A stretch of DNA of 64,000 bases from Acetobacter sp. 46_36 (GTDB lineage Bacteria > Pseudomonadota > Alphaproteobacteria > RF32 > CAG-239), in contig MNTT01000008.1 in assembly GCA_001917135.1 (NCBI GenBank), positions 78,564-142,563 of the forward strand, read 5' to 3'. Every line of letters begins with the position of its first letter. The first letter of the stretch is position 1. The position numbers and the translations under genes are program-made. Shown in pieces: positions 15,924 through 64,000 of this stretch. Under the pieces are notes generated by a model that ran no database searches, was not told where the DNA came from, and saw only the letters and a program-made list of their open reading frames with translations.

Positions 15924-15929
15924 CATAGA

Positions 15930-16018
15930 CAGTTTGCGGCAATGCTGCAGGCTCTGATACGAAAAGCCGTATGAAATAGATATATTGGACCCGGGGGCGG
16001 TACCCGGCACCTCCACCA
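15930..16018 (+). ncRNA. ssrA: tmRNA (ssrA), acceptor piece of a circularly permuted two-piece tmRNA
   Basis: The segment ends ...GGAC-CCGGG-GGCGGUA-CCCGG-CACCUCC-ACCA. This matches the tRNA-Ala-like 3' architecture (GGAC, T-stem, 7-nt loop, T-stem, 3' acceptor strand, discriminator A, CCA). The 3' strand CACCUCC pairs with GGGGGUG nine nt downstream, giving a G3·U pair. The 5' boundary is approximate. Confidence 0.65.
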
Positions 16019-16027
16019 GTTTTTTAC

Positions 16028-16241
16028 GGGGGTGAAACAGGTTTGACAGTGTATAGTAAAGATATGTGGGCTGTATTCGGCAAGATACCACCGTTATCGG
16101 TTCAAATCAAATAAACGCAAATGATAATTTTGCACCTGTTGCCGTAGCTGCATAAGGCAAAGCAACAAAATCAATTCTCCAGGCTATGGTTAGCCCGGAG
16201 TGGGGAAGGAGCCGCCCAGCAACAGAACGGCTCATTTTGTT
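16028..16241 (+). ncRNA. ssrA: tmRNA (ssrA), coding piece with tag ORF ANDNFAPVAVAA
   Basis: Starts with GGGGGUGAAACAGGUUUGACAG, resembling the tmRNA 5' consensus (GGGGCUGAUUCUGGAUUCGAC in E. coli). The tag reading frame at 16119-16157 (gca aat gat aat ttt gca cct gtt gcc gta gct gca taa) gives ANDNFAPVAVAA*, close to the alphaproteobacterial tag ANDNFAEEFAVAA. A rho-independent terminator ends it at 16207-16241. Confidence 0.7.
16207..16241 (+). terminator. Rho-independent terminator after the tmRNA coding piece
   Basis: Stem GAGCCG - 13-nt loop - CGGCUC, followed by AUUUUGUUG. Confidence 0.5.
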
Positions 16242-16271
16242 GTAATTGGCATTAGCGTGGAAAAACCGGAA

Positions 16272-24409: not shown

Positions 24410-26710
24410 TTAATACCTGATATGCTTCAACACAATAGTCGAAAGCGGCGGCAGCGTCAATTCAATCGAATGCGGGCGTCCGTGCATTCCTTCGTCAGAA
24501 GCAATCAGTTCGCCCTCGTTCTTAACGCCGCTTCCCCAGTAGTTCTTATCGTCGCTGTTAAAGATTTCCTGATAAGCGCCGCTGTCCGGAACGCCGATTT
24601 TAAACCCGTGCCGCACTACCGGCGTAAAGTTGCTGATAACAATCATATAGTTGTTGTAGTCATGGCCGCGGCGGATATAGGAAATCACGCTGTCGTTCGC
24701 ATTGGCATGGTCTATCCATTCAAACCCCTTGCCGTCAAAATCTTCTTCATAAAAGGCGGAATTGCCTTTGTACATCAGATTCAAATCCCGAACGCAGTTC
24801 TGCATTCCCTTATACATCGGATACTGCAAGAGATGCCACCTCAGGCTTTCATTGGCATTCCATTCCCAGTCCTGCCCGAATTCGCATCCCATAAACAAAA
24901 GTTTTTTGCCCGGATGCGTCCACATAAAGCCGTAATAAGCGCGAAGATTTGCAAACTTCTGCCACTCGTCTCCCGGCATTTTGCCCAGCATTGATCCTTT
25001 GCCGTGAACAACCTCGTCATGCGAAATCGGCAGGATAAAGTTTTCATTAAACGCATACAGCAGGCCAAACGTCAGTTTCCCGTGTTCGTACTTGCGGTAA
25101 ATCGGATCTTTGCTGATGTAGTTCAGCGTATCGTTCATCCAGCCCATGTTCCATTTATAGCCGAACCCGAGCCCGCCCATAGACGTCGGACGCGAAACCA
25201 TAGGCCATGCCGTCGATTCTTCTGCACAGGTCATAATCCCCGGGCAAGTGCCGTAACACAGTTCGTTCATCTTGCGAATAAATGCAATCGCTTCCAGGTT
25301 TTCATTACCGCCGTAGATATTCGGAATCCACTCGCCGGCCTTGCGCGAATAGTCCAGATACAGCATTGACGCCACCGCATCGACGCGCAGCCCGTCAATA
25401 TGATATTCTTTCAGCCAGTACAGTGCGCTGGAGCACAAAACGTTGCTGACTTCCGTTCTGCCGTAATTATAGATTTTCGTTCCCCAGTCTTTATGTTCTC
25501 CTTTGCGCGGGTCTGCATGTTCATACAGGTGTGTCCCGTCAAACTCAATCAGCCCGTGCCCGTCTTTCGGAAAATGCGCCGGAACCCAGTCCATAATCAC
25601 GCCGATATTCGCCTGGTGGAATTTGTCAATCATATATCTGAAGTCATCGGGCGTACCGAAACGCGATGTCGGCGCAAACAGCCCCGTAACCTGATATCCC
25701 CACGACCCGTCAAACGGGTGTTCGCATACCGGCAGAAATTCAACGTGCGTAAAGCCCATGTTCATCACATACGGCACCAGCGTATCGGCCAGCTCGCGAT
25801 AGGTCAAAAATTCCGAACCGTTTTCCCCTTTTCTGCGCCACGAACCGAGATGAACTTCATAAATGCTCGTCGGACGATCAAAGCTGTTATAAGCTTCGCG
25901 ATACTTCATCCACTCCCCGTCATTCCACTTGTAGTGGTTGAGGTCATAAACGACAGACGCCGTCTTCGGGCGTACTTCGGCATAAAATGCCATCGGGTCG
26001 CTTTTCGTCAGAATATAGCCTTCCTGCGTTTTAACTTCATACTTATAGAGTTCGCCCTCGCCGATATTCGGAATAAAGATATCCCATACGCCGCAGTTGT
26101 AATGTTTGCGCATAACGTTGACGCGGCCGTCCCAGTTGTTAAATGCACCGACAACCGATACCCGTTTCGCGTTCGGCGCCCAAACCGAAAAGCCGACGCC
26201 TTTCACCCCGTTGATTTCCATCAGGTGTGCACCCAGTTTTTTATAAAGGTCCAGATGGTTGCCTTCCGCAAACAGATACTCGTCTATATCGCCCAAAATA
26301 GACGGGAATGAGTAAATATCCTCTTCAACATACGTTTCGTTTTTATCATTGGTAATTTTAAATTTATGCGTAAAATTGTCCGTATTTGTAACCCCGAGGT
26401 TTATTTGGTAAAAACCTCTCTTGTCCAGCTTGGCCATCAGCCCGAGCGAATTGCCGTTTCCGTCCAGCAGTTCGATTGACCTTGTATTCGGCTTGTAAGC
26501 GCGGATATAAACTTCTTTGCTCCCCTTGTCCCGATGAATGCCCAACACAGCCATGACGTTTTCATAATCGCCGTTTATAATGCAGTCCATCTCTTTTTTT
26601 GAAAGTAAATTTTTCATATTCTCCCCGTTGCAGGAACTCAAAACCGCAAAGCTCTGCGGCTGTCCGTTATTCTCAGATTTGACAGTTTGTTTTTTAACTG
26701 TGTCGGCCAT
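24410..26710 (-). CDS. glgB: 1,4-alpha-glucan branching enzyme GlgB (GH13); probable true start at internal Met (about 26617)
   Basis: Carries a CBM48 region and GH13 motifs ([22 protein letters not shown]...). The 766-aa ORF includes about 31 extra N-terminal residues. Confidence 0.9.
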
Positions 26711-27466
26711 AACTATAACTCCAAAATAAAAACAAAAAATAGGTTACGTTTTATGTATAAAAACAAAACAAATAAATTGCAAGAAAATTGTCATTCTTTT
26801 TTTACTTTTTCCGTCGGTATTTTTCTTTTAAAATCAATATGGTTATGTTTTAAAATGCATTTCCGGCAAACGGTATGGAAAAAAGTTTTTTTCCGTCTGT
26901 TTTCCGCCCCGTTTCGCCATACATTTTGTCTCTGTTTTTTTATTATTTTTCACTCCGTTTTTTTCGTGTTTTTTCTCCTGTTTTTTTATATCGTTTTCCC
27001 GGAACGTTTTTCGCGCTTTTCTTCTTCCCGGCCCTCGCCGCCTTGCAATCGGCAGCAGCCCCGCCGGATACAATTTTGCCGGTCTCGCCCGATATAATAT
27101 TTTTATTTGTTATTGCGAGATTTTTTGCACAAGAGTTTGAAAAAAAATTTTTTGTTTTTTTTATTGCGCCGCACATCGTTTTTTATGTTGTTTTTACTAC
27201 CATCCGCGCACACTCTGATAAAAATATTTTATATTTTATTTACAATAGGTTATCATAACTTAAAATTCCTTATAAAAACCACTTTTTATTGTGTTTTTTC
27301 AAGGCTTAAAAAAAAATTTTCTGCCCCCCTTTTTTTTAATCATTTTTTAATCTATTTATGTATATACAAACACTAACAACAAAAACGATGAAAATTCGTA
27401 TTTACAAAATAAAAATTATATTTATACTTAACCTTGTTTTATAACAAAATTATTTGGAGAATTGAA

Positions 27467-27685
27467 ATGACATTCAATGAAAATTTAATCAGAGAAGCTG
27501 CTTATTACAACTGGCAGAATGCCGGTTGCCCGTTTGGTCAGGACGAAAAGTTCTGGAACATGGCAATCGAACAGATTTACGGTTCCAAGGCTGCAAAGTC
27601 TTGCTGCAGCACTTCTTCTTCTTCCAAGAAGACAGCTTCTTCCAGCAAAAAGACTTCTTCTTCAAAGTCTAAATCCAAGAAGTAG
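27467..27685 (+). CDS. DUF2934-like small protein with a Ser/Lys-rich tail
   Basis: MTFNENLIREAAYYNWQNAGCPFGQDEKFWNMAIEQI matches the DUF2934 pattern (IRerAYxlWexxGrPxGrDxehWxxAE). An RBS (GGAGAA) lies 6 nt upstream. The longer track ORF (27434) lacks an RBS. Confidence 0.55.
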   Translation: MTFNENLIREAAYYNWQNAGCPFGQDEKFWNMAIEQIYGSKAAKSCCSTSSSSKKTASSSKKTSSSKSKSKK

Positions 27686-27706
27686 GATTTGCTGAAAAAA
27701 CAAAAG

Positions 27707-27731
27707 GCCACCTTGATTAAGGTGGTTTTTT
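27707..27731 (+). terminator. Rho-independent terminator
   Basis: Stem ccacctt - gatt - aaggtgg, followed by ttttttt. Confidence 0.8.
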
Positions 27732-27921
27732 TATGTCTTCTGATACCGGTCATTATCCCTACCACCAATCTCTCCTGCCTGCCTTCCGCCCTGTTTTCGC
27801 TCTTCTTTCCCTCTGCTGCCCTCGCTTCTTTTTTCTTTACCGAATTTTAAGCTCTGCCGCATAAAATAAAACATATAATACAAACCGCACAATCTGCAAC
27901 TTGGGGAGCAAAAGCCGTATA

Positions 27922-29178
27922 ATGAAAATGAAAAAAATAAACCCGCTGAAAAGGCTGGATTTGGCCTGTTTCCTCCGCTCGCAGCTTTATCTTGCTCCGG
28001 TGCTGCTGCTCTTTTACCAGCAAAACGGACTGACCATCGCCGACTTTGTCCTGTTTCAGGGAATTTTCCAGCTGACCGGAATCTTGTTTGAGATTCCCTG
28101 CGGTTACATCGCCGACGTCATTTCCAAAAAAAAGGTTCTCGTCCTCGCTTTCGTCTGTTTCTTTCTCCGCGCCGCCCTGTGGCTTAGTTTTTCCGGCATG
28201 TATATCATTCTGCTCGGCGAACTTTTCAACGCCTTGTCGCGGGCATTTCTTTCCGGCGTTTATGACAGTTATATTTATGATTACCTGAAAAGCGAAAACA
28301 AAACCAAACGGATGCTAAAAGAATGCGGACGCACCAATTTCGCCATGTCTTCCGGCGCCATGTTTGCCGCCGTCTTCAGCGCCGTCCTGTACGACCGCTA
28401 CGGCACTGTCGTTTTGCTGTCGCTGGAATTTGTCCTGACGCTGGTCAGCATTGTCCTGCTCACCACTCTGCCCAACCCGCCGTCTGCACGTCCGCATGCC
28501 CGCACGTTGAAAGAAAAATTTGTTGAAATCAAAGATACCACCGTCGCCACGATAAAAAATCCCAACATCAACGTCTACATCTTGTATTCGGCACTCCTGT
28601 TTTCTACAACCTCCTTATTTTGCTGGTGTTTCCAGCCGCTGTTAAAAATGTCCGCCGCGCCAGTTCTGATGTTTAGTTCCATTTATGTCATCAATCATGC
28701 ATTGCGCGCCGGCTTTTCCTTTCACGTCAACCGATTGAAAAAGTTTTTCGGATTTAACCGCCTGCTGGTCGTTACAACATTCCTCTGTATTTATTCTTTC
28801 GCCTGTATGATATTAAGTTTCCATTTCCGACAGCCGAATGTGGCATTCATCTGTCTGATATTCGTCTGCATCGGCATCGGATTCCAACTGGCATTTGCCA
28901 TTGCCAATATTAACCACATCCACAACTACGCTATGGAAGAAACGCGCGCCACCATCTCCTCGGTTAACAATATGCTGCAGCAAACCCTTTCCGGCATTTC
29001 TCTGATTTGCTTCAAGTTTGTCATCGAACCGGGCAGCGGCACCGCCGGGCTTAGTTTTGCTTCGGCATTCTCGGTGTTCGGAGCGTTTTACCTGAGTTTG
29101 TTTGTCCTGTTGCTCTACATCATTTTCAAACGCAGCGCAGAACATGATGCGGAACACACGCCAGGAACCGCCTGCTGA
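27922..29178 (+). CDS. MFS-family transporter
   Basis: About 12 TM helices. An MFS motif-A-like loop (GYIADVISKKKV) follows TM2. The track ORF starts at a TTG at 27901; the first ATG is at 27922. Confidence 0.7.
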   Translation: MKMKKINPLKRLDLACFLRSQLYLAPVLLLFYQQNGLTIADFVLFQGIFQLTGILFEIPCGYIADVISKKKVLVLAFVCFFLRAALWLSFSGMYIILLGELFNALSRAFLSGVYDSYIYDYLKSENKTKRMLKECGRTNFAMSSGAMFAAVFSAVLYDRYGTVVLLSLEFVLTLVSIVLLTTLPNPPSARPHARTLKEKFVEIKDTTVATIKNPNINVYILYSALLFSTTSLFCWCFQPLLKMSAAPVLMFSSIYVINHALRAGFSFHVNRLKKFFGFNRLLVVTTFLCIYSFACMILSFHFRQPNVAFICLIFVCIGIGFQLAFAIANINHIHNYAMEETRATISSVNNMLQQTLSGISLICFKFVIEPGSGTAGLSFASAFSVFGAFYLSLFVLLLYIIFKRSAEHDAEHTPGTAC

Positions 29179-54118: not shown

Positions 54119-54583
54119 ATGGGACAGGACAGCACACACAACCGCAGCTATTTCCTTAATGCCGGTGAGGAGGAAAAAAGCATTTTCCTCTCAACATTAT
54201 GCACGCTTGCCAATGCCGACGGTAAAATCAAAGACAGCGAAGTTCGCTTTATTGAAAGCCTTGCCGCCGAAATGCAAACTGAAGTTCTGCCGCAGTTTTT
54301 CAAATACTCCGCAGAACTGTGCATCCGCAATGCCGCCAAAATCCGCAGCCGCAGGCTGGCTCTTGAACTGATTAAAGATATGCTGTCGCTCGCTTACACC
54401 GACGATGAGTTTTCCGATTCTGAAGGGCAGTTCATCTGCAGCATCGGCGACGCCCTGAATATTGAACCGCAGAAAATCGGCCAAATCAGCTCCTGGGTCA
54501 TCGACCGGATAATCTGGCTCGAGCAGGAAGCTCTGATATTTGAAGAAACCGCAAACCGGGGAGGAGAACATGGAAAAAACTAA
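54119..54583 (+). CDS. TerB-like (tellurite-resistance TerB / DjlA-N family) domain protein
   Basis: Two-lobed all-helical pattern with conserved LANADGKIKDSEVRFIESL and ..LAYTDDEFSDSEGQFI.. motifs, paralleling the TerB ADG...SxEE repeats. Confidence 0.5.
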   Translation: MGQDSTHNRSYFLNAGEEEKSIFLSTLCTLANADGKIKDSEVRFIESLAAEMQTEVLPQFFKYSAELCIRNAAKIRSRRLALELIKDMLSLAYTDDEFSDSEGQFICSIGDALNIEPQKIGQISSWVIDRIIWLEQEALIFEETANRGGEHGKN

Positions 54584-58462: not shown

Positions 58463-59116
58463 TTAAAACAATGTCAGAATATTGCAAGCCTGTTTTTCTT
58501 CGCTGCAGACATTGCATAAACTTTCAATATCGGCAGCATTTATTCTCTCTATACAATTCCGGGAATCTCTGCAATATTGGCACCCCATATACCAGTCAGA
58601 ACCGTTATTCCAGCTGTCGTTCCGCTTTTCGGCTACTCTGATTGCAAAAATTCTGTCGCAGTTAGGAATAATAACATTATGAAAAACCAGCCTGCAAAAT
58701 TCTGCCGTTTCTTTTCCCTTTCTTTGTGAAAGCACAAAATCAATATCAACACGCCGATTGAAGCTGAAAGACATCAAATCGTTACGGACAAACGGGACTA
58801 TATGATTGCCCAGTCTGTCAGAAAAACGATTTCCAGATACAGTCCATGAGGACGGCAGCATCCCCCATTCTTCCATATATGGTCCGATATATAAATGGCC
58901 GCTGCTTTGCTTTGACATCATCTTTATCCAGTCTTTTTCATAAACTAACATTTCTGAAATAAACAGATTATACTCTTCGGTACATTTAATCGCTTTCCAC
59001 CTGAACACAGCCTTCCCGAATTCGGCAATGGCGCCAGCCGACAAAACGCCGACAATAGCCAAAACACCAAGCATCTCAATCATTGAACGCCCGGCCTGAT
59101 TAGATTTTATACTCAT
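58463..59116 (-). CDS. Prepilin-type N-terminal domain protein (orphan type IV pilin/pseudopilin-like), Cys-rich C-terminus
   Basis: N-terminus MSIKSNQAGRSMIEMLGVLAIVGVLSAGAIA carries the class III signal (G-1, E+5, hydrophobic helix). The globular part (about 185 aa) has 10 Cys. No pilus-assembly genes are nearby. Confidence 0.55.
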   Translation of the reverse strand: MSIKSNQAGRSMIEMLGVLAIVGVLSAGAIAEFGKAVFRWKAIKCTEEYNLFISEMLVYEKDWIKMMSKQSSGHLYIGPYMEEWGMLPSSWTVSGNRFSDRLGNHIVPFVRNDLMSFSFNRRVDIDFVLSQRKGKETAEFCRLVFHNVIIPNCDRIFAIRVAEKRNDSWNNGSDWYMGCQYCRDSRNCIERINAADIESLCNVCSEEKQACNILTLF

Positions 59117-59533: not shown

Positions 59534-60925
59534 CTATCTTCCGGCCTTAATCGCCTCAATCAGCTCATGCGTTGTCGGAATATGCCCGTTCACATACAAC
59601 GAATCCTGACCGAAACGGTAAACCTGATGTCCGGCAAACAACAAATTGTCGTCTGTCTTGCCGTTATGGCTGATGTCAAACAGAGTCTTATGAATGCAGT
59701 AAGTTCTCGGGTCGCAGATTTTCCCCGTCGTCCCGTTCGCCCCCGACCAGGACGAGAACTGGCACTGAGACAGACAGCCCAAACATTTCGCCCGGTCGTC
59801 TTTCATCGTTGCCCATTCTTCCGGCGTCAGGAAAACCACCGTACTGTCCGGCGTTTCCTGAATAACCGTAAATCCGGCTTTAATCTGATTATCGGCTTTC
59901 GCCAAATCCGCAGCCCTGACAAATACCGTTTTGACATTGCTCAATGCCAGCGGCGTATCAAACTCTTCCGTTTTTTCTGCGCTGTACGCAACCTCCCCTT
60001 CTTTGCGTTCCATCAAACGGCTCAAAAACTTGTTTTTAATCGCCGAAGAATAAAATCCCGTCGGGCTGAAACGCTGCAAAACAACATCGCCCGGTTTCGT
60101 ATTGAGCATAACCTTTTTCCACGCGTCGCTGATTGGGCTTTCCTGCGTAATCATCGGGCGCGTTCCGAACTGGAATGCGACTTTGCCGATTTCCGGATTG
60201 TCCAGATAATCTGTCCAGTCGCTTAACGACCAAACCCCGCCGGCAATGATAATCGGCGTCTCTGCCAGACCAAGCTTATTCAACGTTGCCCGCAGCTCTT
60301 TAATCCGGTTATACGGATTCTGCGGCTCGTTCGGATTCTCTGCGTTGGACAAACCGTTGTGCCCGCCCGCCAGCCACGGATCTTCATAAACCACGCCGCC
60401 CAAAAACTCGCTGTAATTGGCATACGCGCGTTTCCACAAAATCTGAAACGCCCGCGCCGAAGAAACGATGGGATAATAGTAAACGCCTTGTGCCGACGCA
60501 ATCTCGCCCAATTTATACGGCAGCCCTGCACCGCAGGTAACGCCGTGGATAAGCCCTTTGGCACCTTTCAAAACTTCCGTGATAACCGTTTCGGAATCCG
60601 CCAGTTCCCACAACTCGTTAACGTGAATCCGCCCGTTATTTCCTGCAATCTCATGCGCTATCCGCGCTTGGGCAATACCGCCTTTAATCGCCCCGGCAAT
60701 CAAATCCTCGTGCCGTTCCTGCCGTTTCAGACGATGCGACCGCTCCATGACAACGTTGCCGTTTTCATCATAATAGTCGGCGCTGACCAGCGAAATCGTC
60801 CCCACGCAGCCTTCTTTGGCAAAATGCCCGCTGCTGCGGCCGTCGGTTCCGTTAATTCCTTTTCCGCCCTCAATAATCGGACAGACTTCCTTGCCTGAAA
60901 TAACGATGTTTTTTAAATTTATCAC
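59534..60925 (-). CDS. Nitronate monooxygenase (NMO / 2-nitropropane dioxygenase) family flavoprotein
   Basis: FMN-binding TIM-barrel signatures (..PIIEGGKGIN.., ..LAGGHNGL.., ..IIAGGVWS..). At 463 aa it is longer than typical NMO/FabK. Confidence 0.55.
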   Translation of the reverse strand: MINLKNIVISGKEVCPIIEGGKGINGTDGRSSGHFAKEGCVGTISLVSADYYDENGNVVMERSHRLKRQERHEDLIAGAIKGGIAQARIAHEIAGNNGRIHVNELWELADSETVITEVLKGAKGLIHGVTCGAGLPYKLGEIASAQGVYYYPIVSSARAFQILWKRAYANYSEFLGGVVYEDPWLAGGHNGLSNAENPNEPQNPYNRIKELRATLNKLGLAETPIIIAGGVWSLSDWTDYLDNPEIGKVAFQFGTRPMITQESPISDAWKKVMLNTKPGDVVLQRFSPTGFYSSAIKNKFLSRLMERKEGEVAYSAEKTEEFDTPLALSNVKTVFVRAADLAKADNQIKAGFTVIQETPDSTVVFLTPEEWATMKDDRAKCLGCLSQCQFSSWSGANGTTGKICDPRTYCIHKTLFDISHNGKTDDNLLFAGHQVYRFGQDSLYVNGHIPTTHELIEAIKAGR

Positions 60926-61035: not shown

Positions 61036-62559
61036 CTAAAAAGCCTTGAACAATCTCCCCCACTCAATATCATTGCCGACAATCAGCGCTATTGCCACAC
61101 AACAATAAGTATATGTTATAAGGGCATTAATTGTCGTCCCCCCGGCTCTTTTCACTAAAAAGCGGCGGAATTTTCTGATCATCCAATGCAAAAAATTAAA
61201 GAACAGGATGCAGGCAATCAGCTGCAAAGATATCCCCAGCCCCTTCAACTCCGTTTTGTACTCCAAGGCCGCCCGCGGCAAAAACGTCATCAACAGGCTG
61301 TAAAACATAACCAGAAAATACGTTACCCGCATCGCACGCTTTTCGCTCTGCATATGTTCGATTTTATCTTTTTCCAAACTTTCCCGCGACAGTTTTTTCA
61401 GTTCGAATCCGCGGATTTTCCGGGGCTCTGCCTGTTTTTCCTTAATCGTTTTCAAATTTGCCTTAAGCCGTTCTTCGGCCACGCATAACCCGCATCCCTT
61501 ATTGGTAAAATATGCGTGGTTGGGATTCTTTTTGCAATGTTTCAGATTCTTCAGCAAAAAATCCAATTCAGCCTGCCATTCTGCCGCTGTCGGACGTTTT
61601 TGCCCCTTAACAAATGCCCGGTCAAACAGCTTCATCGTGCTCTGCGGCAAAAACTCGTGAATACTGTACGGATGCGGTGCCTGATAGCTGTCACCCCACA
61701 TACCGTAGGCATAATGGTACTGTTCTATTCGCTCCTGTATGGAAAGCGCGCTGTCCGCATTTTTTTTCGCCACGCCGGAAAACGGATGGATGCCGTTGTT
61801 CAACAGCTTGAAAATAATCACCGCCAGGGCAAATTTATCCTGCTCTTCGCCCATATCCTCGCAGGATTGGGCCATTCCTTCGGGATAAATATATTCCTCG
61901 CTGACAAATTCCGCCGGAAACCGCGCCTGCTCGCCCTGAATCGAAAAACCGTCGCAGTCAAACATGGCCACCGTCATCGTTTTTTTGTAAATAGAAACGT
62001 TCGCCGGTTTCAAATCAATGATATAATGCCCGTATTTATGCAGTGATGCCACCATCAACGCCACGTTGTATGCCGCCATAACCCGGTATTCGTACTTGTC
62101 GCTGAGGCCGAGCTTGGCACGAACCGCCCCTTGCATCAGATGGTCAAGGGACACCGCTTCCGCCGTATTGATAAAAGGCATCAGATACCCGACACAATAC
62201 CCTTCGTCATCTTCCAAAACCGCTTCCGGCCAGGCAATCTGCACATACTCTACCCCGCCTGCACGTACGCTCGGAATATTCGGATTGTTTACCACCATCG
62301 CTTCCAGTTTCAGGCGGTTGGTATTGCTCTTCTGCCGTTCATGAAAAATCTTCGCTACTTTCGCCGGCTGTCCGACAATTTCATAAATTTTTCCCGCTGC
62401 ACCACCCTTGTTCAAGAGCTTACCAAGCGTCAGCCGTTCAAAATGTCTGTCCGCAAAAATCGCATTAACCTGAAGCTGTGCCGTATCTTCTGCCATCACC
62501 GTAACCCTGCTCATAAAATCGCTGTAACCTTGCCTGTAAATCTCTATAGCCCTGCTCAT
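61036..62559 (-). CDS. Hanks-type Ser/Thr protein kinase with a C-terminal TM segment
   Basis: Catalytic loop HYIIDLKPANV (HxDLKPxN), Lys-containing beta3 (AKIF), DFG-like DCDGF, and a C-terminal hydrophobic region. Alternative Met starts lie 15 and 21 codons downstream. Confidence 0.7.
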   Translation of the reverse strand: MSRAIEIYRQGYSDFMSRVTVMAEDTAQLQVNAIFADRHFERLTLGKLLNKGGAAGKIYEIVGQPAKVAKIFHERQKSNTNRLKLEAMVVNNPNIPSVRAGGVEYVQIAWPEAVLEDDEGYCVGYLMPFINTAEAVSLDHLMQGAVRAKLGLSDKYEYRVMAAYNVALMVASLHKYGHYIIDLKPANVSIYKKTMTVAMFDCDGFSIQGEQARFPAEFVSEEYIYPEGMAQSCEDMGEEQDKFALAVIIFKLLNNGIHPFSGVAKKNADSALSIQERIEQYHYAYGMWGDSYQAPHPYSIHEFLPQSTMKLFDRAFVKGQKRPTAAEWQAELDFLLKNLKHCKKNPNHAYFTNKGCGLCVAEERLKANLKTIKEKQAEPRKIRGFELKKLSRESLEKDKIEHMQSEKRAMRVTYFLVMFYSLLMTFLPRAALEYKTELKGLGISLQLIACILFFNFLHWMIRKFRRFLVKRAGGTTINALITYTYCCVAIALIVGNDIEWGRLFKAF

Positions 62560-62600
62560 AAAATCGCTGTAACCTTACCCGTAAATCTCTATAGCCCTGC
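62505..62600. repeat. 45-bp tandem direct repeat (2 full units plus a partial third) spanning the kinase start codon
   Basis: Unit 1 ccctgctcataaaatcgctgtaaccttgcctgtaaatctctatag occupies 62505-62549. Unit 2 (62550-62594) has two mismatches. ccctgcccac follows. On the minus strand each unit reads ATGAGCAGGGCTATAGAGATTTAC..., reproducing the MSRAIEIY start. Confidence 0.85.
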
Positions 62601-63398
62601 CCACAAAAAAGTCTTGTCATCAGAATTCAGTCGCCGCGCTTGTTTGGTATCCAGCGTATTGTTCAATGCCCGCAGCGCCTGCATCTTATTCTGTTCGCTT
62701 TTAAGATAACGGTTAATCGGCTCAATAAACCCGTTTTTCAACCGACATGCATCGTCCGACAGGGCAAAATTCGTAACCCCGTCCGTCATCAGAAACAATG
62801 CTTCCGCTTTGCTTATCTCCGTAAAACGGAGACAATCGCGCCAGTTGCTCATTGTATAAAAATATGTCTCACACGAAAAATTCCCGTTCGCCGGCCTGGA
62901 AAGCGTATAACGCAGCCCGGTCCCCACCGTCGTTTCGCCGTATACCGCAATGCCGGCACCATCACCGATATGAAAAAACAAACCGCGGTTCTTATGGTAA
63001 ACCGCTCCGACCAACGTCGCCGAAAAATTCAAAATTTCCGATTCCGATTTGCTTTTGTTTAACCGGTGAATGACAAGCCGCCGCCGCGCTATGTCAATTG
63101 CTTTTTTTACCGCCTCTTCCGCATCTTTCAGCGGCGTATTTATCAACACGTTGACCAGCGTTTCGCAAACAACTTTAGCCCCGATTTTGCCATATTTAGC
63201 CGACCCTGCGCCATCTGACACCACTGCCACGAGTTTATTGCCCGAACACGCATACTGGTAAAAATCCTGACACGGCTTTTTCTTGGCCAGATGCAGCCCT
63301 CCTGTAATTTTAGTCGCGATGACGCGGATGCTCCTAGGCGTTTTCTTCATGCCAGCCCTCAATATCGTCCAAAATATCGGGCATATTCGGCGCCGCAC
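62589..63398 (-). CDS. PP2C-family Ser/Thr protein phosphatase (probable start at internal Met MKKTPRS, about 63350)
   Basis: PP2C metal-binding motifs (..VAVVSDGAGSAKYG.., ..LFLMTDGVTNF..). Confidence 0.7.
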   Translation of the reverse strand: MRRRICPIFWTILRAGMKKTPRSIRVIATKITGGLHLAKKKPCQDFYQYACSGNKLVAVVSDGAGSAKYGKIGAKVVCETLVNVLINTPLKDAEEAVKKAIDIARRRLVIHRLNKSKSESEILNFSATLVGAVYHKNRGLFFHIGDGAGIAVYGETTVGTGLRYTLSRPANGNFSCETYFYTMSNWRDCLRFTEISKAEALFLMTDGVTNFALSDDACRLKNGFIEPINRYLKSEQNKMQALRALNNTLDTKQARRLNSDDKTFLWAGL

Positions 63399-63996
63399 GG
63401 GAAATACAGGACACGCTGCGCGACAGCCAAAGGAAAAACTCCGTAAACTTCAACCCGCTTAAACGCTTGGGTGCCATCAGCGAAAACTTAGCCAGCTTGT
63501 CCAGATTAGCCCCCTGCGTGCCAACCGCGTGGATAACGACTTTTTTATTCTGCTGCGCTTCCCGGCATTTTGCCGCCGCCAGTTCCCAGCCGTAATCCGT
63601 CGGTTCCCCGTCGCTGATAAGGAAAATCCACGGCCGTTTGGAGGTAATGCCGCAGCTGTCATACAGACATTTTTGTTCCTCTATTTTCTGCAGCGCCAGT
63701 TCCATTGCCTTGCCGATAGGCGACAGACCGGAGGCCTCCATAATCGGCGCGGTAAAATTCATCGCGTCAACCCAGTCCGCGGAAATTTCCGCATCGTCTT
63801 TGCCGTACGCCTTAATCACCAGCAGCTGTACGCGCGAACTGGCATCAATATCCTCTTTCAGTTCTTTTTCCAGCGCCTGCAACCCGGTATTCAGCTGTTT
63901 AATCGGTTCTCCGCGCATTGAACCCGAACAATCCAACACTAAAATGCACGGCGTCCGCTCGTTGGCATTTTCTGCAAATTCCACATAAGGAATCAT
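63334..63996 (-). CDS. von Willebrand factor A (vWA) domain protein, TerY-like
   Basis: MIDAS DxSxS (ILVLDCSGSMRG) plus downstream Thr/Asp MIDAS residues (..ISDGEPTD..). About 220 aa, with a 5' end very near the window edge. Confidence 0.75.
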   Translation of the reverse strand: MIPYVEFAENANERTPCILVLDCSGSMRGEPIKQLNTGLQALEKELKEDIDASSRVQLLVIKAYGKDDAEISADWVDAMNFTAPIMEASGLSPIGKAMELALQKIEEQKCLYDSCGITSKRPWIFLISDGEPTDYGWELAAAKCREAQQNKKVVIHAVGTQGANLDKLAKFSLMAPKRLSGLKFTEFFLWLSRSVSCISRAAPNMPDILDDIEGWHEENA

Positions 63997-64000
63997 AACG

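What the first reader, a model, noticed from the sequence alone, without database searches (positions are those of the whole stretch)
61036..63996. vWA / PP2C phosphatase / Ser-Thr kinase triad (TerY-P-like three-gene signalling module)
Three consecutive minus-strand genes encode a vWA protein with an intact MIDAS site, a PP2C phosphatase, and a Hanks-type kinase with a C-terminal membrane anchor. The genes are tightly linked, and the PP2C gene overlaps the vWA stop. This vWA+PP2C+STK arrangement matches a triad predicted computationally as a phosphorylation-switch system associated with Ter stress and defence loci; its biological role is essentially untested. A TerB-like gene also lies about 7 kb away (54119-54583). 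The locus sits at the window edge, so further components may lie beyond 64000.
Basis: partly seen in the sequence, partly recalled or inferred. Interest (0 to 1): 0.7.

Follow-up and report, generated by a model that had tools for sequence, protein, structure and literature searches.

The report
Core YegL–PphC–YegI-type phosphorylation triad
The three genes are real and form a vWA protein, PP2C phosphatase and membrane kinase module homologous to E. coli yegL-pphC-yegI, a known kind, but here it is a stably inherited chromosomal operon of gut Alphaproteobacteria, not part of a tellurite or phage-defence island.

Summary
Three co-directional minus-strand genes encode a TerY-type vWA protein with an intact MIDAS site, a PP2C_2 phosphatase and a Hanks-type kinase. 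After the kinase domain come an invariant CHCC zinc knuckle and 2-3 C-terminal membrane helices.

All three proteins are homologous, in the same order, to E. coli YegL, PphC and YegI. Those E. coli proteins are biochemically characterised. The three proteins match the Ter-plasmid TerY/PP2C/kinase genes more distantly.

In 79 of 79 related species genomes with enough sequence, the three genes are adjacent in the same order. They sit between the same flanking genes. This is vertical inheritance, not chance adjacency and not a mobile island.

The vWA protein is the most conserved gene of the neighbourhood (83-96% identity where the kinase is 55-82%).

Beyond the window edge there is one more conserved component. 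It is a 40-45-aa lipoprotein gene directly upstream, present in every locus.

No Ter or defence genes lie nearby. The TerB-domain gene 7 kb away is separated by housekeeping genes.

TerY-P modules have been shown to protect against T7-like phages, and YegI/PphC activities have been measured.

Verdict: a new member of a known kind, of modest interest.

The parts
63334..64000 (-). TerY/YegL-type vWA protein gene. 220 codons lie inside the window from the ATG at 63996. The probable true start is 36 nt beyond the window end (231-232 aa). MIDAS residues are D22, S24, S26, S92 and D129. The invariant C-terminal helix is FTEFFLWLSRSVSCIS (aa 184-199).
   Evidence: Pfam VWA. 42% identity to E. coli YegL, E 2e-50. 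About 32% identity to pLVPK TerY. TerY signature alignment. AlphaFold model pLDDT 80, with vWA-domain fold matches in PDB. Start codon evidence.
62589..63350 (-). PP2C-family (PP2C_2) Ser/Thr phosphatase gene, 253 aa. It overlaps the vWA stop by 17 nt. The motif residues D29 (CQD), D46 (SDGAGS), D130 (IGDGAG), D190 (TDG) and D244-D245 (SDDKT) are conserved in all orthologues.
   Evidence: Pfam PP2C_2 E 1.3e-35. 26% identity to E. coli PphC, E 8e-15, same length 253 aa. D46 aligns with the PphC D46 that is essential for activity (10.1101/303594). Conservation; motif positions.
62506..62595 (-). Two copies of a 45-bp tandem repeat at the PP2C stop / kinase start junction. Copy number is polymorphic in the species (0, 1 or 2). 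Each unit carries the PP2C stop (TAG) and an ATG in frame with the kinase. The 0-copy allele has the ancestral TGATG stop/start overlap.
   Evidence: Tandem Repeats Finder: period 45, 2.3 copies, 93% matches. Copy-number survey of same-species contigs. No other copy in the window.
61036..62496 (-). Membrane-anchored Hanks-type Ser/Thr kinase gene, 486 aa, YegI-like.
   Evidence: Pfam Pkinase. 28% identity over 339 aa to E. coli YegI, E 6e-29. Fold matches to PknA/PknB/AMPK/PKA. Invariant K49, D161 (IIDLKPANV), D180-C-D182 (YegI has DSD), P205-E206, D220 and R301.
61543..62439 (-). Kinase catalytic domain (aa ~20-318).
   Evidence: Alignment with YegI. Conserved motifs. Secondary structure of the model.
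61483..61536 (-). Zinc-knuckle-like motif C321-x5-H327-x7-C335-x2-C338 directly after the kinase domain.
   Evidence: Invariant in 40 orthologues and in E. coli YegI. Present in 139 of 144 family representatives. The pLVPK Ter kinase has Cys pairs at the aligned position. Zinc binding is inferred, not tested.
61075..61332 (-). C-terminal membrane region (aa ~389-474) with 2-3 hydrophobic helices and no extracytoplasmic domain. The positive loop 441-453 suggests N-in, C-out topology.
   Evidence: Kyte-Doolittle scan. Helices 371-474 in the AlphaFold model. Low sequence conservation in this region.
59534..60925 (-). NMO / 2-nitropropane-dioxygenase-like flavoenzyme gene, 110 nt downstream on the same strand. 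It is a conserved neighbour in about 74 of 80 loci but is lost or displaced in six, so it is probably not part of the module.
   Evidence: Pfam NMO. PDB sequence matches to 2-nitropropane dioxygenase, E 5e-20. Synteny tables.

Best explanation
This is a chromosomal, vertically inherited phosphorylation switch of the YegL-PphC-YegI type, which is the TerY-P triad class.

Proposed mechanism:
- The kinase is held at the inner membrane by its C-terminal helices, with the catalytic domain and zinc knuckle in the cytoplasm.
- As shown for E. coli YegI, it is expected to activate by trans-autophosphorylation when it oligomerises.
- As shown for E. coli PphC acting on YegI, the PP2C is expected to reset the kinase.
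- The TerY-type vWA protein is inferred to be the output. It would be the phospho-regulated adaptor or substrate, using its metal-ion (MIDAS) site to bind a partner.
- The invariant serine-rich last helix (W190-L-S-R-S-V-S-x-x-S199) is a candidate phospho-acceptor. It is the helix that controls MIDAS affinity in integrin I-domains.

In this clade the operon probably begins with a clade-specific 40-45-aa lipoprotein gene just outside the window. The conservation pattern points to an endogenous signalling role, possibly related to the cell envelope, rather than a mobile defence cassette.

Shown here: domain identities, catalytic residues, homology to YegL/PphC/YegI, conserved gene order and overlaps.
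Shown elsewhere for homologues: kinase and phosphatase activities, and membrane insertion.
Inferred: the substrate, the signal and the biological role.
For: Domains and catalytic motifs are intact and invariant across orthologues.

All three proteins match E. coli YegL, PphC and YegI in the same gene order.

Folds are confirmed by AlphaFold models and PDB fold search.

Gene order and coupling:
- vWA-PP2C-kinase are adjacent in 79 of 79 species-level genomes.
- vWA/PP2C overlaps are 8-20 nt in 78 of 79.
- PP2C/kinase gaps are -4 or -1 nt in 55 of 79, suggesting translational coupling.

Vertical inheritance: the flanking thioredoxin-fold and NMO-like genes are conserved, and their identity tiers run parallel to the kinase's.

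Constraint on the vWA: median identity 96% and 83% in the near and far clades. The corresponding figures are 82/55 for the kinase, 79/53 for the PP2C and 87/69 for NMO. FolD is 62-72% and MiaB 65-87% in near-clade loci.

The E. coli counterpart is also core: yegL-pphC is present in 5415 of 5426 complete genomes, with a median of one copy per genome and almost all copies chromosomal.

The lipoprotein gene sits upstream in all 79 loci. It also precedes the vWA gene in all 98 metagenomic matches that code for this peptide and have at least 400 nt of downstream sequence. No terminator-like site lies between it and the vWA gene.

Biochemistry of homologues comes from bioRxiv 10.1101/819920 (YegI autophosphorylation with second-order kinetics, two-pass membrane topology) and 10.1101/303594 (PphC activity, D46N inactive, dephosphorylates YegI).

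The fold search also lists the archaeal ArnAB complex (8s05) among vWA matches. From my own knowledge, ArnB is a vWA protein phosphorylated by Hanks-type kinases, which is a precedent for vWA proteins as kinase substrates.
Against: No experiment identifies a substrate of YegI or any function of YegL. Conditions for expression of the E. coli genes are unknown (10.1101/819920; PMC13232886).

The vWA-as-substrate step is inference. The serine-rich helix could be conserved for purely structural reasons, and the model's confidence falls there (pLDDT about 53-68).

The kinase differs from YegI. It has no C-terminal helix-hairpin-helix region, probably three rather than two membrane helices, and DCD instead of the DSD loop whose serine is autophosphorylated in YegI.

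Conserved synteny within one clade does not prove that the lipoprotein or the flanking genes are functionally linked.

Related TerY-P modules do act as phage defence, so an endogenous role is not established.
Confidence: 0.8

Rival explanations
1. It is primarily an anti-phage defence system of the TerY-P type. The kinase would sense infection by T7-like phages and, with the phosphatase and vWA protein, block infection.
For: The same three-domain architecture as TerY-P has been shown to protect against phages. It protects against T7-like phages in E. coli (PMC7699616, reporting Gao et al. 2020). It protects against Autographiviridae in P. aeruginosa, with cells surviving infection (bioRxiv 10.1101/2022.08.12.503731). 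The kinase has weak PADLOC matches to the PD-T4-6 and MkoA kinase models. PHROG families match all three proteins.
Against: No PADLOC model matches the vWA protein, and the PP2C has only a marginal match (E 0.003) to a candidate model, PDC-M21C. I could not confirm which TerY-P models PADLOC holds, and E. coli YegL and PphC also give no match.

The tested defence kinases carry a C-terminal OB fold (PMC11090510). This kinase has membrane helices instead.

The neighbours are housekeeping genes, not a defence island.

The locus is fixed at one chromosomal site in 79 of 79 species. The vWA protein is the most conserved gene of the neighbourhood, the opposite of the patchy, fast-evolving pattern usual for defence genes.

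The only 'phage' record with a close relative is an unverified 11.7-kb faecal contig. It carries the same thioredoxin-fold/vWA/PP2C/kinase/NMO block, so it is most likely a bacterial fragment.
Confidence: 0.25
2. It is part of a Ter (tellurite or metal stress) system together with the TerB-like gene 7 kb away.
For: The vWA protein is of the TerY type, and the kinase and PP2C match those of the pLVPK Ter cluster. A TerB-domain ORF exists at 54119-54583.
Against: No TerZ, TerA, TerC, TerD or TerE genes, and no TerY-C domain protein, were found in the roughly 15 kb of window sequence next to the triad that was annotated, or in the 4.4 kb upstream of the triad in L010.

The TerB-domain gene is separated from the triad by folD, a DedA-like gene, a pilin-like gene and the NMO-like gene.

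In the more distant relatives the triad keeps its flanks, but no TerB gene is found within 6 kb.

The E. coli counterpart yegL-pphC-yegI also lies away from any ter operon.
Confidence: 0.05
3. The three genes are independent neighbours: chance adjacency or mere inherited gene order without functional coupling.
For: All 80 loci come from one clade of gut and rumen Alphaproteobacteria. Shared ancestry alone conserves some gene order there, and the flanking genes are conserved too.
Against: The same three families occur in the same order in E. coli (Gammaproteobacteria) and on Ter plasmids.

Start and stop codons overlap throughout the clade.

More distant flanking genes (folD, DedA) are rearranged in the far clade while the triad stays intact.

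PphC dephosphorylates YegI in vitro (10.1101/303594).
Confidence: 0.03

Closest known systems
E. coli yegL-pphC(yegK)-yegI locus
   Same: All three proteins are homologous: vWA 42% identity (E 2e-50), PP2C 26% (E 8e-15, both 253 aa), kinase 28% over 339 aa (E 6e-29). The gene order is the same and the vWA and PP2C genes overlap in both. Both kinases share the G-loop, the catalytic Lys and Asp, a D-x-D loop in place of DFG, the CHCC motif and a membrane anchor without an outside sensor domain (10.1101/819920). Both loci are core chromosomal genes.
   Different: YegI is 648 aa with two membrane helices followed by a cytoplasmic helix-hairpin-helix region. This kinase is 486 aa, ends after about three helices, and has a more canonical catalytic loop (IIDLKPANV against VGDVNQNS) and DCD instead of DSD. 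E. coli has no upstream small lipoprotein gene; its neighbours are ibsA/sibA and yegD.
TerY-P (TerY-phosphorylation) triad of Ter clusters, for example plasmid pLVPK TerY1-3 / PP2C / kinase
   Same: Both have a TerY-type vWA with the same N-terminal R-x-P...D-x-S-x-S and C-terminal W-x-S/T-x-S...S signatures. Both have a PP2C and a kinase with a Cys-rich knuckle after the catalytic domain, in a co-directional operon.
   Different: Similarity is lower (vWA about 32%, kinase 26% at E 3e-10). The plasmid version has three TerY paralogues, a TerY-C domain, a 577-aa PP2C and a soluble kinase. It sits next to TerD/TerA and phosphoribosyltransferase genes. None of that is present here.
TerY-P anti-phage defence systems (Gao et al. 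2020; P. aeruginosa variant of Costa et al.)
   Same: The three-gene composition is the same: vWA, PP2C phosphatase and Ser/Thr kinase (PMC7699616; 10.1101/2022.08.12.503731).
   Different: The tested kinases end in an OB fold (PMC11090510), not membrane helices. The PADLOC models gave no match to the vWA and only a marginal one to the PP2C. This locus is not in a defence island and is fixed across a whole clade. I could not compare sequences directly because the tested proteins were not available to me.
Archaeal ArnA/ArnB-ArnC/ArnD system (analogy only)
   Same: From my own knowledge, ArnB is a cytoplasmic vWA protein that is phosphorylated by Hanks-type kinases and acts as a phospho-dependent regulator. 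The ArnAB structure 8s05 is among the fold matches of the vWA model.
   Different: There is no detectable sequence relationship beyond the vWA fold, no FHA partner here, and a different gene organisation.

Membership tests
TerY-P triad (Anantharaman, Iyer & Aravind 2012, as described in PMC11090510 and PMC4978471) | TerY-like vWA protein with MIDAS site | tested here: met
   Pfam VWA. The alignment with YegL and pLVPK TerY1-3 shows invariant D22, S24, S26, G90, D129, W190, S194 and S199. The vWA fold is confirmed.
TerY-P triad (Anantharaman, Iyer & Aravind 2012, as described in PMC11090510 and PMC4978471) | PP2C-like phosphatase encoded next to it | tested here: met
   PP2C_2 E 1.3e-35. The metal-binding Asp motifs are invariant in orthologues. 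E 8e-13 to the pLVPK PP2C.
TerY-P triad (Anantharaman, Iyer & Aravind 2012, as described in PMC11090510 and PMC4978471) | Ser/Thr kinase fused at the C-terminus to a zinc ribbon | tested here: met
   Kinase fold. C321-x5-H327-x7-C335-x2-C338 is invariant and present in 139 of 144 family representatives. Metal binding itself is not testable here.
TerY-P triad (Anantharaman, Iyer & Aravind 2012, as described in PMC11090510 and PMC4978471) | Association with Ter genes or DNA-processing / restriction modules | tested here: not met
   The neighbours are housekeeping genes. This is a frequent but, per PMC11090510, not obligatory feature, since stand-alone triads exist.
YegL-PphC-YegI module of E. 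coli | Significant pairwise homology of all three proteins, in the same order | tested here: met
   E 2e-50, 8e-15 and 6e-29, with the order vWA, PP2C, kinase on one strand.
YegL-PphC-YegI module of E. coli | Kinase is an integral membrane protein without an extracytoplasmic sensor domain | tested here: met
   Prediction only: 2-3 hydrophobic helices at aa 389-474 with loops of no more than 13 residues. The topology of YegI was determined experimentally (10.1101/819920).
YegL-PphC-YegI module of E. coli | C-terminal cytoplasmic helix-hairpin-helix region of YegI | tested here: not met
   The protein ends at residue 486. The YegI region 470-648 has no counterpart.
YegL-PphC-YegI module of E. 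coli | Kinase autophosphorylation, and its reversal by the PP2C | not testable with these tools
   This needs purified proteins. The catalytic residues K49, D161 and PP2C D46 are conserved.
Experimentally validated TerY-P phage-defence systems (Gao 2020 type) | Match to the defence-system profile models | tested here: not met
   PADLOC gives no match for the vWA, a marginal PDC-M21C match for the PP2C, and only weak PD-T4-6/MkoA matches for the kinase. E. coli YegL and PphC also give none. I could not verify which TerY-P models the library holds.
Experimentally validated TerY-P phage-defence systems (Gao 2020 type) | Kinase with a C-terminal OB fold | tested here: not met
   The C-terminus consists of membrane helices. 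The OB-fold statement is taken from PMC11090510.
Experimentally validated TerY-P phage-defence systems (Gao 2020 type) | Protection against phage | not testable with these tools
   This needs a plaque assay. The organism is uncultured, known only from metagenome-assembled genomes (MAGs).
Ter tellurite-resistance cluster | terZABCDE-type genes adjacent to the locus | tested here: not met
   There is only a lone TerB-domain ORF 7 kb away behind housekeeping genes. Compare the pLVPK cluster.
LptM (for the upstream small lipoprotein) | Score above the family threshold | tested here: not met
   NCBIfam SS_mature_LptM scores 20.2 bits against a cut-off of 27.7, matching only the signal peptide and lipobox. 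Pfam LptM_cons gives E 0.02, below its threshold.

The most novel reading that the evidence does not exclude
In this clade of gut Alphaproteobacteria the triad may be the core of a four-gene, vertically inherited envelope-signalling operon. A clade-specific lipopeptide of about 22 residues (mature sequence C-G-K-x-S-x-P-x-P-x-E-G-S-G-Y-P-H-x-Y-P-R) would be the periplasmic partner or signal of a kinase that has no sensor domain. The vWA protein is more conserved than FolD or MiaB. It would be a phospho-switched adaptor acting on an essential cellular process rather than on phage. This would give the first physiological handle on the function of YegL, PphC and YegI, which is still unknown.
Probability: 0.2. 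Interest if true: 0.55.

Novelty: new member of a known kind. Interest (0 to 1): 0.3.

Why it matters
The physiological role of the YegL-PphC-YegI / TerY-P triad is unknown even in E. coli. No substrate, signal or expression condition has been identified. Related triads act as phage defence by an unknown mechanism.

This locus shows that one branch of the family is a fixed, strongly constrained chromosomal operon across a whole clade of uncultured gut Alphaproteobacteria. Its vWA protein is the slowest-evolving part, and a conserved small lipoprotein gene precedes it.

That pattern argues that at least some TerY-P-type triads serve an endogenous function. It also points to the vWA protein and its serine-rich last helix as the place to look for the switch.

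The finding is useful context for people studying bacterial Ser/Thr signalling or TerY-P defence. It is not a new kind of system.

Tried and rejected
- PADLOC scan of the three proteins and of E. coli YegL/PphC/YegI. No TerY-P model matched, so it could not be used to place the locus. I could not confirm the library's TerY-P content.
- Phage carriage. PHROG families match all three proteins. However, tblastn against 50,697 phage records found one hit only, an 'UNVERIFIED' faecal contig carrying the same bacterial gene block. Rejected as evidence of a phage origin.
- Reading Gao et al. 2020 (PMC7985843) and Anantharaman et al. 2012 (PMC4104200, DOI). Neither is held. Their content is cited only through papers that describe them.
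- Sequence search of the PDB for the three proteins found no relatives.
- The search for related loci with the lipoprotein alignment failed because no stretch was conserved enough. It was replaced by a degenerate DNA pattern scan.
- Lipoprotein as LptM: only sub-threshold matches restricted to the signal peptide and lipobox. Left open.
- NMO-like gene as a fifth component: no clear terminator between it and the kinase. It is missing or displaced in six loci where the triad and lipoprotein persist, so it is treated as a neighbour.
- Promoter and terminator scans around the operon start gave nothing beyond chance. A conserved TTGTAC...ATATAA stretch upstream of the lipoprotein gene is only suggestive.
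- A literature search for newer TerY-P mechanism papers found nothing relevant.

Full report
**1. What is in the window**

The last 3 kb of the window carry three co-directional minus-strand ORFs.

*Domains.* Pfam assigns them to VWA (63334-63996, E 3e-6), PP2C_2 (E 1.3e-35) and Pkinase (E 2.7e-8). All three scores are above the curated cut-offs.

*Gene starts.* These need correction.
- The PP2C most likely starts at the ATG at 63350 (253 aa, as called on other contigs). This overlaps the vWA stop by 17 nt.
- The kinase most likely starts at the ATG at 62496 (486 aa).
- The vWA gene is probably truncated by the window edge. In the same-species contig L010 the ORF begins 12 codons further upstream, behind an AGGGG motif. 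Orthologues are 226-232 aa.

*Catalytic and binding residues.*
- vWA: MIDAS residues D22-x-S24-x-S26, S92 (T in relatives) and D129.
- PP2C: D29, D46, D130, D190 and D244-245.
- Kinase: G-loop, K49, D161 within IIDLKPANV, D180-C-D182, P205-E206, D220 and R301.
- These residues are present and invariant or nearly so across orthologues.

*Structure models.*
- An AlphaFold model of the kinase (pLDDT 82.5) finds PknA, PknB, AMPK and PKA among its best PDB matches.
- A model of the vWA protein (pLDDT 80) matches vWA and integrin I-domains.

*Kinase C-terminal part.*
- After the kinase domain comes an invariant C321-x5-H327-x7-C335-x2-C338 motif.
- Then come 2-3 hydrophobic helices (aa ~389-474) with loops of no more than 13 residues. 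This is a membrane anchor without a sensor domain.

**2. Organism and surroundings**

The closest genomes are uncultured gut and rumen Alphaproteobacteria MAGs. L010, labelled 'uncultured Rickettsiales bacterium UMGS1453', is 99% identical.

The window neighbours are housekeeping genes:
- lnt, ybeY, phoH and miaB;
- a TerB-domain ORF;
- folD, a DedA-like gene and a pilin-like gene;
- an NMO / 2-nitropropane-dioxygenase-like gene.

Beyond position 64000, L010 shows the following:
- a 45-aa lipoprotein gene;
- a divergently transcribed AhpC/TlpA-like thioredoxin-fold gene whose product begins with a hydrophobic N-terminal stretch that looks like a signal peptide;
- a 176-aa ORF with no family match;
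- an autotransporter.

I found no Ter operon, no restriction or other defence genes, and no mobile-element genes.

**3. Co-occurrence**

A scan of one genome per species found 287 relatives of the kinase, of which the best 80 loci were retrieved.
- In all 79 loci with sequence upstream of the kinase, vWA, PP2C and kinase are adjacent in the same order.
- The thioredoxin-fold gene is found upstream, divergently oriented, in 78 of the 79.
- The NMO-like gene follows in about 74.
- vWA/PP2C overlaps are 8-20 nt in 78 of 79 loci.
- PP2C/kinase spacing is -4 or -1 nt in 55 of 79 loci.
- More distant genes (DedA, folD, TerB) are syntenic only in the nearer subclade.

Identity to the window falls in parallel tiers for the triad and its flanks, as expected for vertical descent. 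The vWA protein stands out.

| Gene | Median identity, near subclade | Median identity, far subclade |
|---|---|---|
| vWA | 96% | 83% |
| kinase | 82% | 55% |
| PP2C | 79% | 53% |
| NMO-like | 87% | 69% |

FolD is 62-72% and MiaB 65-87% in near-clade loci. In the vWA protein, 70% of columns are at least 97% identical.

Chance adjacency is excluded. The pattern is that of a core operon, not of a patchy island.

**4. Closest known relatives**

*E. coli yegL-pphC-yegI.* One source names relatives 'YegL' and 'helix-hairpin-helix protein with protein kinase domain'. Direct comparison with E. coli K-12 gives the following, in the same gene order:
- vWA 42% identical to YegL (E 2e-50);
- PP2C 26% identical to PphC (E 8e-15, both 253 aa);
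- kinase 28% identical to YegI over 339 aa (E 6e-29).

What is known about the E. coli proteins:
- YegI is an active, staurosporine-sensitive kinase. It autophosphorylates with second-order kinetics.
- YegI has DSD in place of DFG and is a two-pass inner-membrane protein (bioRxiv 10.1101/819920).
- PphC is an active PP2C that is inactivated by D46N, and it dephosphorylates YegI (bioRxiv 10.1101/303594).
- Substrates, signals and expression conditions are unknown (same papers; PMC13232886).
- yegL-pphC is present in 5415 of 5426 complete E. coli genomes, with a median of one copy per genome and almost all copies chromosomal. It is core there too.

*Classical Ter-linked triad.* It can be seen on plasmid pLVPK as TerY1, TerD-family gene, TerY2, TerY3 (with a TerY-C domain), a 577-aa PP2C and a 499-aa kinase, all near terA.
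- The window proteins match these more weakly: vWA about 32%, kinase E 3e-10, PP2C E 8e-13.
- The vWA shares the TerY signature, including W190, S194 and S199.

*Kinase family.* It is large: 726 clusters at 50% identity with E no higher than 1e-30. Of the best 144 full-length representatives, 139 keep the C...H...CxxC motif and 109 have one hydrophobic segment followed by C-terminal regions of very different lengths. The window kinase is a minimal member.

**5. Defence or not**

TerY-P modules were shown to protect against T7-like phages (PMC7699616, on Gao et al. 2020). They also protect against Autographiviridae in P. aeruginosa, with cells surviving infection (bioRxiv 10.1101/2022.08.12.503731).

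Several things separate this locus from the tested systems:
- The tested kinases end in an OB fold (PMC11090510).
- No PADLOC model matches the vWA or, meaningfully, the PP2C. The same is true for E. coli YegL and PphC, and I could not check the library's content.
- The genomic context is housekeeping.
- The module is fixed and strongly constrained.

The PHROG matches are not backed by real phage genomes. The only phage-collection hit is an unverified faecal contig with the same bacterial gene block.

I therefore rate a dedicated defence role as possible but less likely than an endogenous signalling role.

**6. The extra component**

A 40-45-aa ORF with a signal peptide and lipobox lies between the thioredoxin-fold gene and the vWA gene, on the triad's strand. 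The conserved mature sequence is C-G-K/R-x-S-x-P-x-P-x-E-G-S-G-Y-P-H-x-Y-P-R.
- It is present in all 79 loci.
- A degenerate DNA pattern for E-G-S-G-Y-P-H-x-Y-P gave 120 metagenome matches, of which 7 are unrelated chance matches.
- All 98 matches that code for this peptide and have at least 400 nt of downstream sequence have the vWA gene 42-330 nt downstream.
- All of these matches belong to the same clade (vWA 71-100% identical).
- A profile search finds 357 clusters, all 40-70 aa, unnamed and without Pfam domains.
- Matches to LptM are sub-threshold and confined to the signal peptide and lipobox.
- No terminator-like site separates it from the vWA gene.
- A conserved promoter-like stretch lies upstream of it.

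Whether it works with the triad or is only syntenic cannot be decided from one clade.

**7. Proposed mechanism**

- Shown for homologues: the membrane-tethered kinase autophosphorylates in trans, and the PP2C reverses this.
- Shown here: the residues needed for both activities and for MIDAS metal binding are intact and under purifying selection, and the genes are translationally coupled.
- Inferred: the vWA protein is the regulated output.
  - Its last helix (aa 181-196 in the model) carries the invariant W-L-S-R-S-V-S motif.
  - In integrin I-domains, from established knowledge, the equivalent alpha7 helix shifts to switch MIDAS affinity. Phosphorylation there could gate partner binding.
  - Archaeal ArnB, a vWA protein phosphorylated by Hanks-type kinases (my knowledge), is a precedent. 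The ArnAB structure 8s05 is among the fold matches.
- Unknown: the signal. With no sensor domain, candidates are membrane or envelope state, or the small lipoprotein.

**8. Junction repeat**

The PP2C/kinase junction holds a 45-bp tandem repeat.
- The window has 2 copies at 62506-62595.
- Same-species contigs have 0 copies (L142), 1 copy (10 contigs) or 2 copies (the window, L002, L003 and L005).
- The 0-copy allele has the TGATG stop/start overlap seen in other species.
- Each unit brings a TAG in the PP2C frame and an in-frame ATG for the kinase.
- The repeat uncouples the two genes and may alter kinase translation.

**9. Verdict**

It is a TerY-P-type triad. It is not Ter- or defence-island-associated, and it is no longer 'untested'.
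- It is a new member of a known kind, and its closest named relative is E. coli YegL-PphC-YegI.
- Interest is modest (0.3). The points worth keeping are the exceptional conservation of the vWA protein, the clade-wide fixation of the operon and the conserved upstream lipoprotein.

Noticed in passing
outside the window, about 64103-64240 by extrapolation; L010:4216-4353 (+): A conserved 40-45-aa lipoprotein gene lies directly upstream of the vWA gene on the same strand. It has a lipobox, and the mature peptide contains E-G-S-G-Y-P-H-x-Y-P. It is present in all 79 related loci and always next to the triad in metagenomes. The family is unnamed and has no Pfam domain. Matches to LptM are sub-threshold only.
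   Followed up: yes
window 62506-62595 (-): A 45-bp tandem repeat sits at the PP2C stop / kinase start junction. Copy number is polymorphic (0, 1 or 2) among contigs of the same species. The 0-copy allele restores the overlapping stop/start seen in other species.
   Followed up: yes
window 63334-64000 (-): The vWA protein is the most conserved gene of the neighbourhood across 79 related species. It is 83-96% identical where FolD, MiaB, the kinase and the PP2C are 50-87%. That is unusual for a gene family linked to defence.
   Followed up: partly
L010:3479-4120 (-), outside the window: An AhpC/TlpA-like thioredoxin-fold gene is transcribed divergently from the lipoprotein-triad operon, about 100 nt away. 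Its product begins with a hydrophobic N-terminal stretch that looks like a signal peptide. It is found in 78 of 79 loci, although its identity drops to 31-39% in the far clade.
   Followed up: partly
window 59534-60925 (-): A 463-aa NMO / 2-nitropropane-dioxygenase-like gene with a Cys-rich C-terminal extension follows the kinase in about 74 of 80 loci. It is absent or displaced in six (L066, L071, L072, L080, L082, L083).
   Followed up: partly
window 58463-59116 (-): An ORF with a type IV pilin-like N-terminal methylation motif lies between the NMO-like gene and the DedA-like gene. At this position it recurs only in the same-species contig L010 (84%) and weakly in L017 (46%); weak matches elsewhere in many far-clade loci lie at other positions. 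This spot appears to be variable.
   Followed up: no
window 15926-16246 (+): ARAGORN reports a tmRNA marked with an asterisk, with tag peptide ANDNFAPVAVAA. If the asterisk denotes a permuted two-piece tmRNA, that fits the alphaproteobacterial origin inferred from the protein matches.
   Followed up: no
window 26001-28000: G+C content drops to 0.38 against about 0.48 for the rest of the window. This could be a foreign or intergenic segment.
   Followed up: no
E. coli genomes (L009): yegL-pphC is in 99.8% of complete E. coli genomes, but about a third of them are only 90-95% identical to K-12. That looks like high allelic divergence for a core locus, although I did not compare it with other core genes. 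One strain has an IS1 insertion in the locus.
   Followed up: no
L211 (MT836238.1, 'UNVERIFIED: Bacteriophage sp.'): This 11.7-kb record in the phage collection carries the same thioredoxin-fold / vWA / PP2C / kinase / NMO block as the bacterial loci. It is probably a bacterial chromosomal fragment filed as phage. Such records may explain the PHROG families that match the triad.
   Followed up: partly
L080:10320-12923: Phage-like ORFs (lysozyme-like and tail-fibre-like N-termini) lie about 3 kb downstream of the triad in one distant relative.
   Followed up: no
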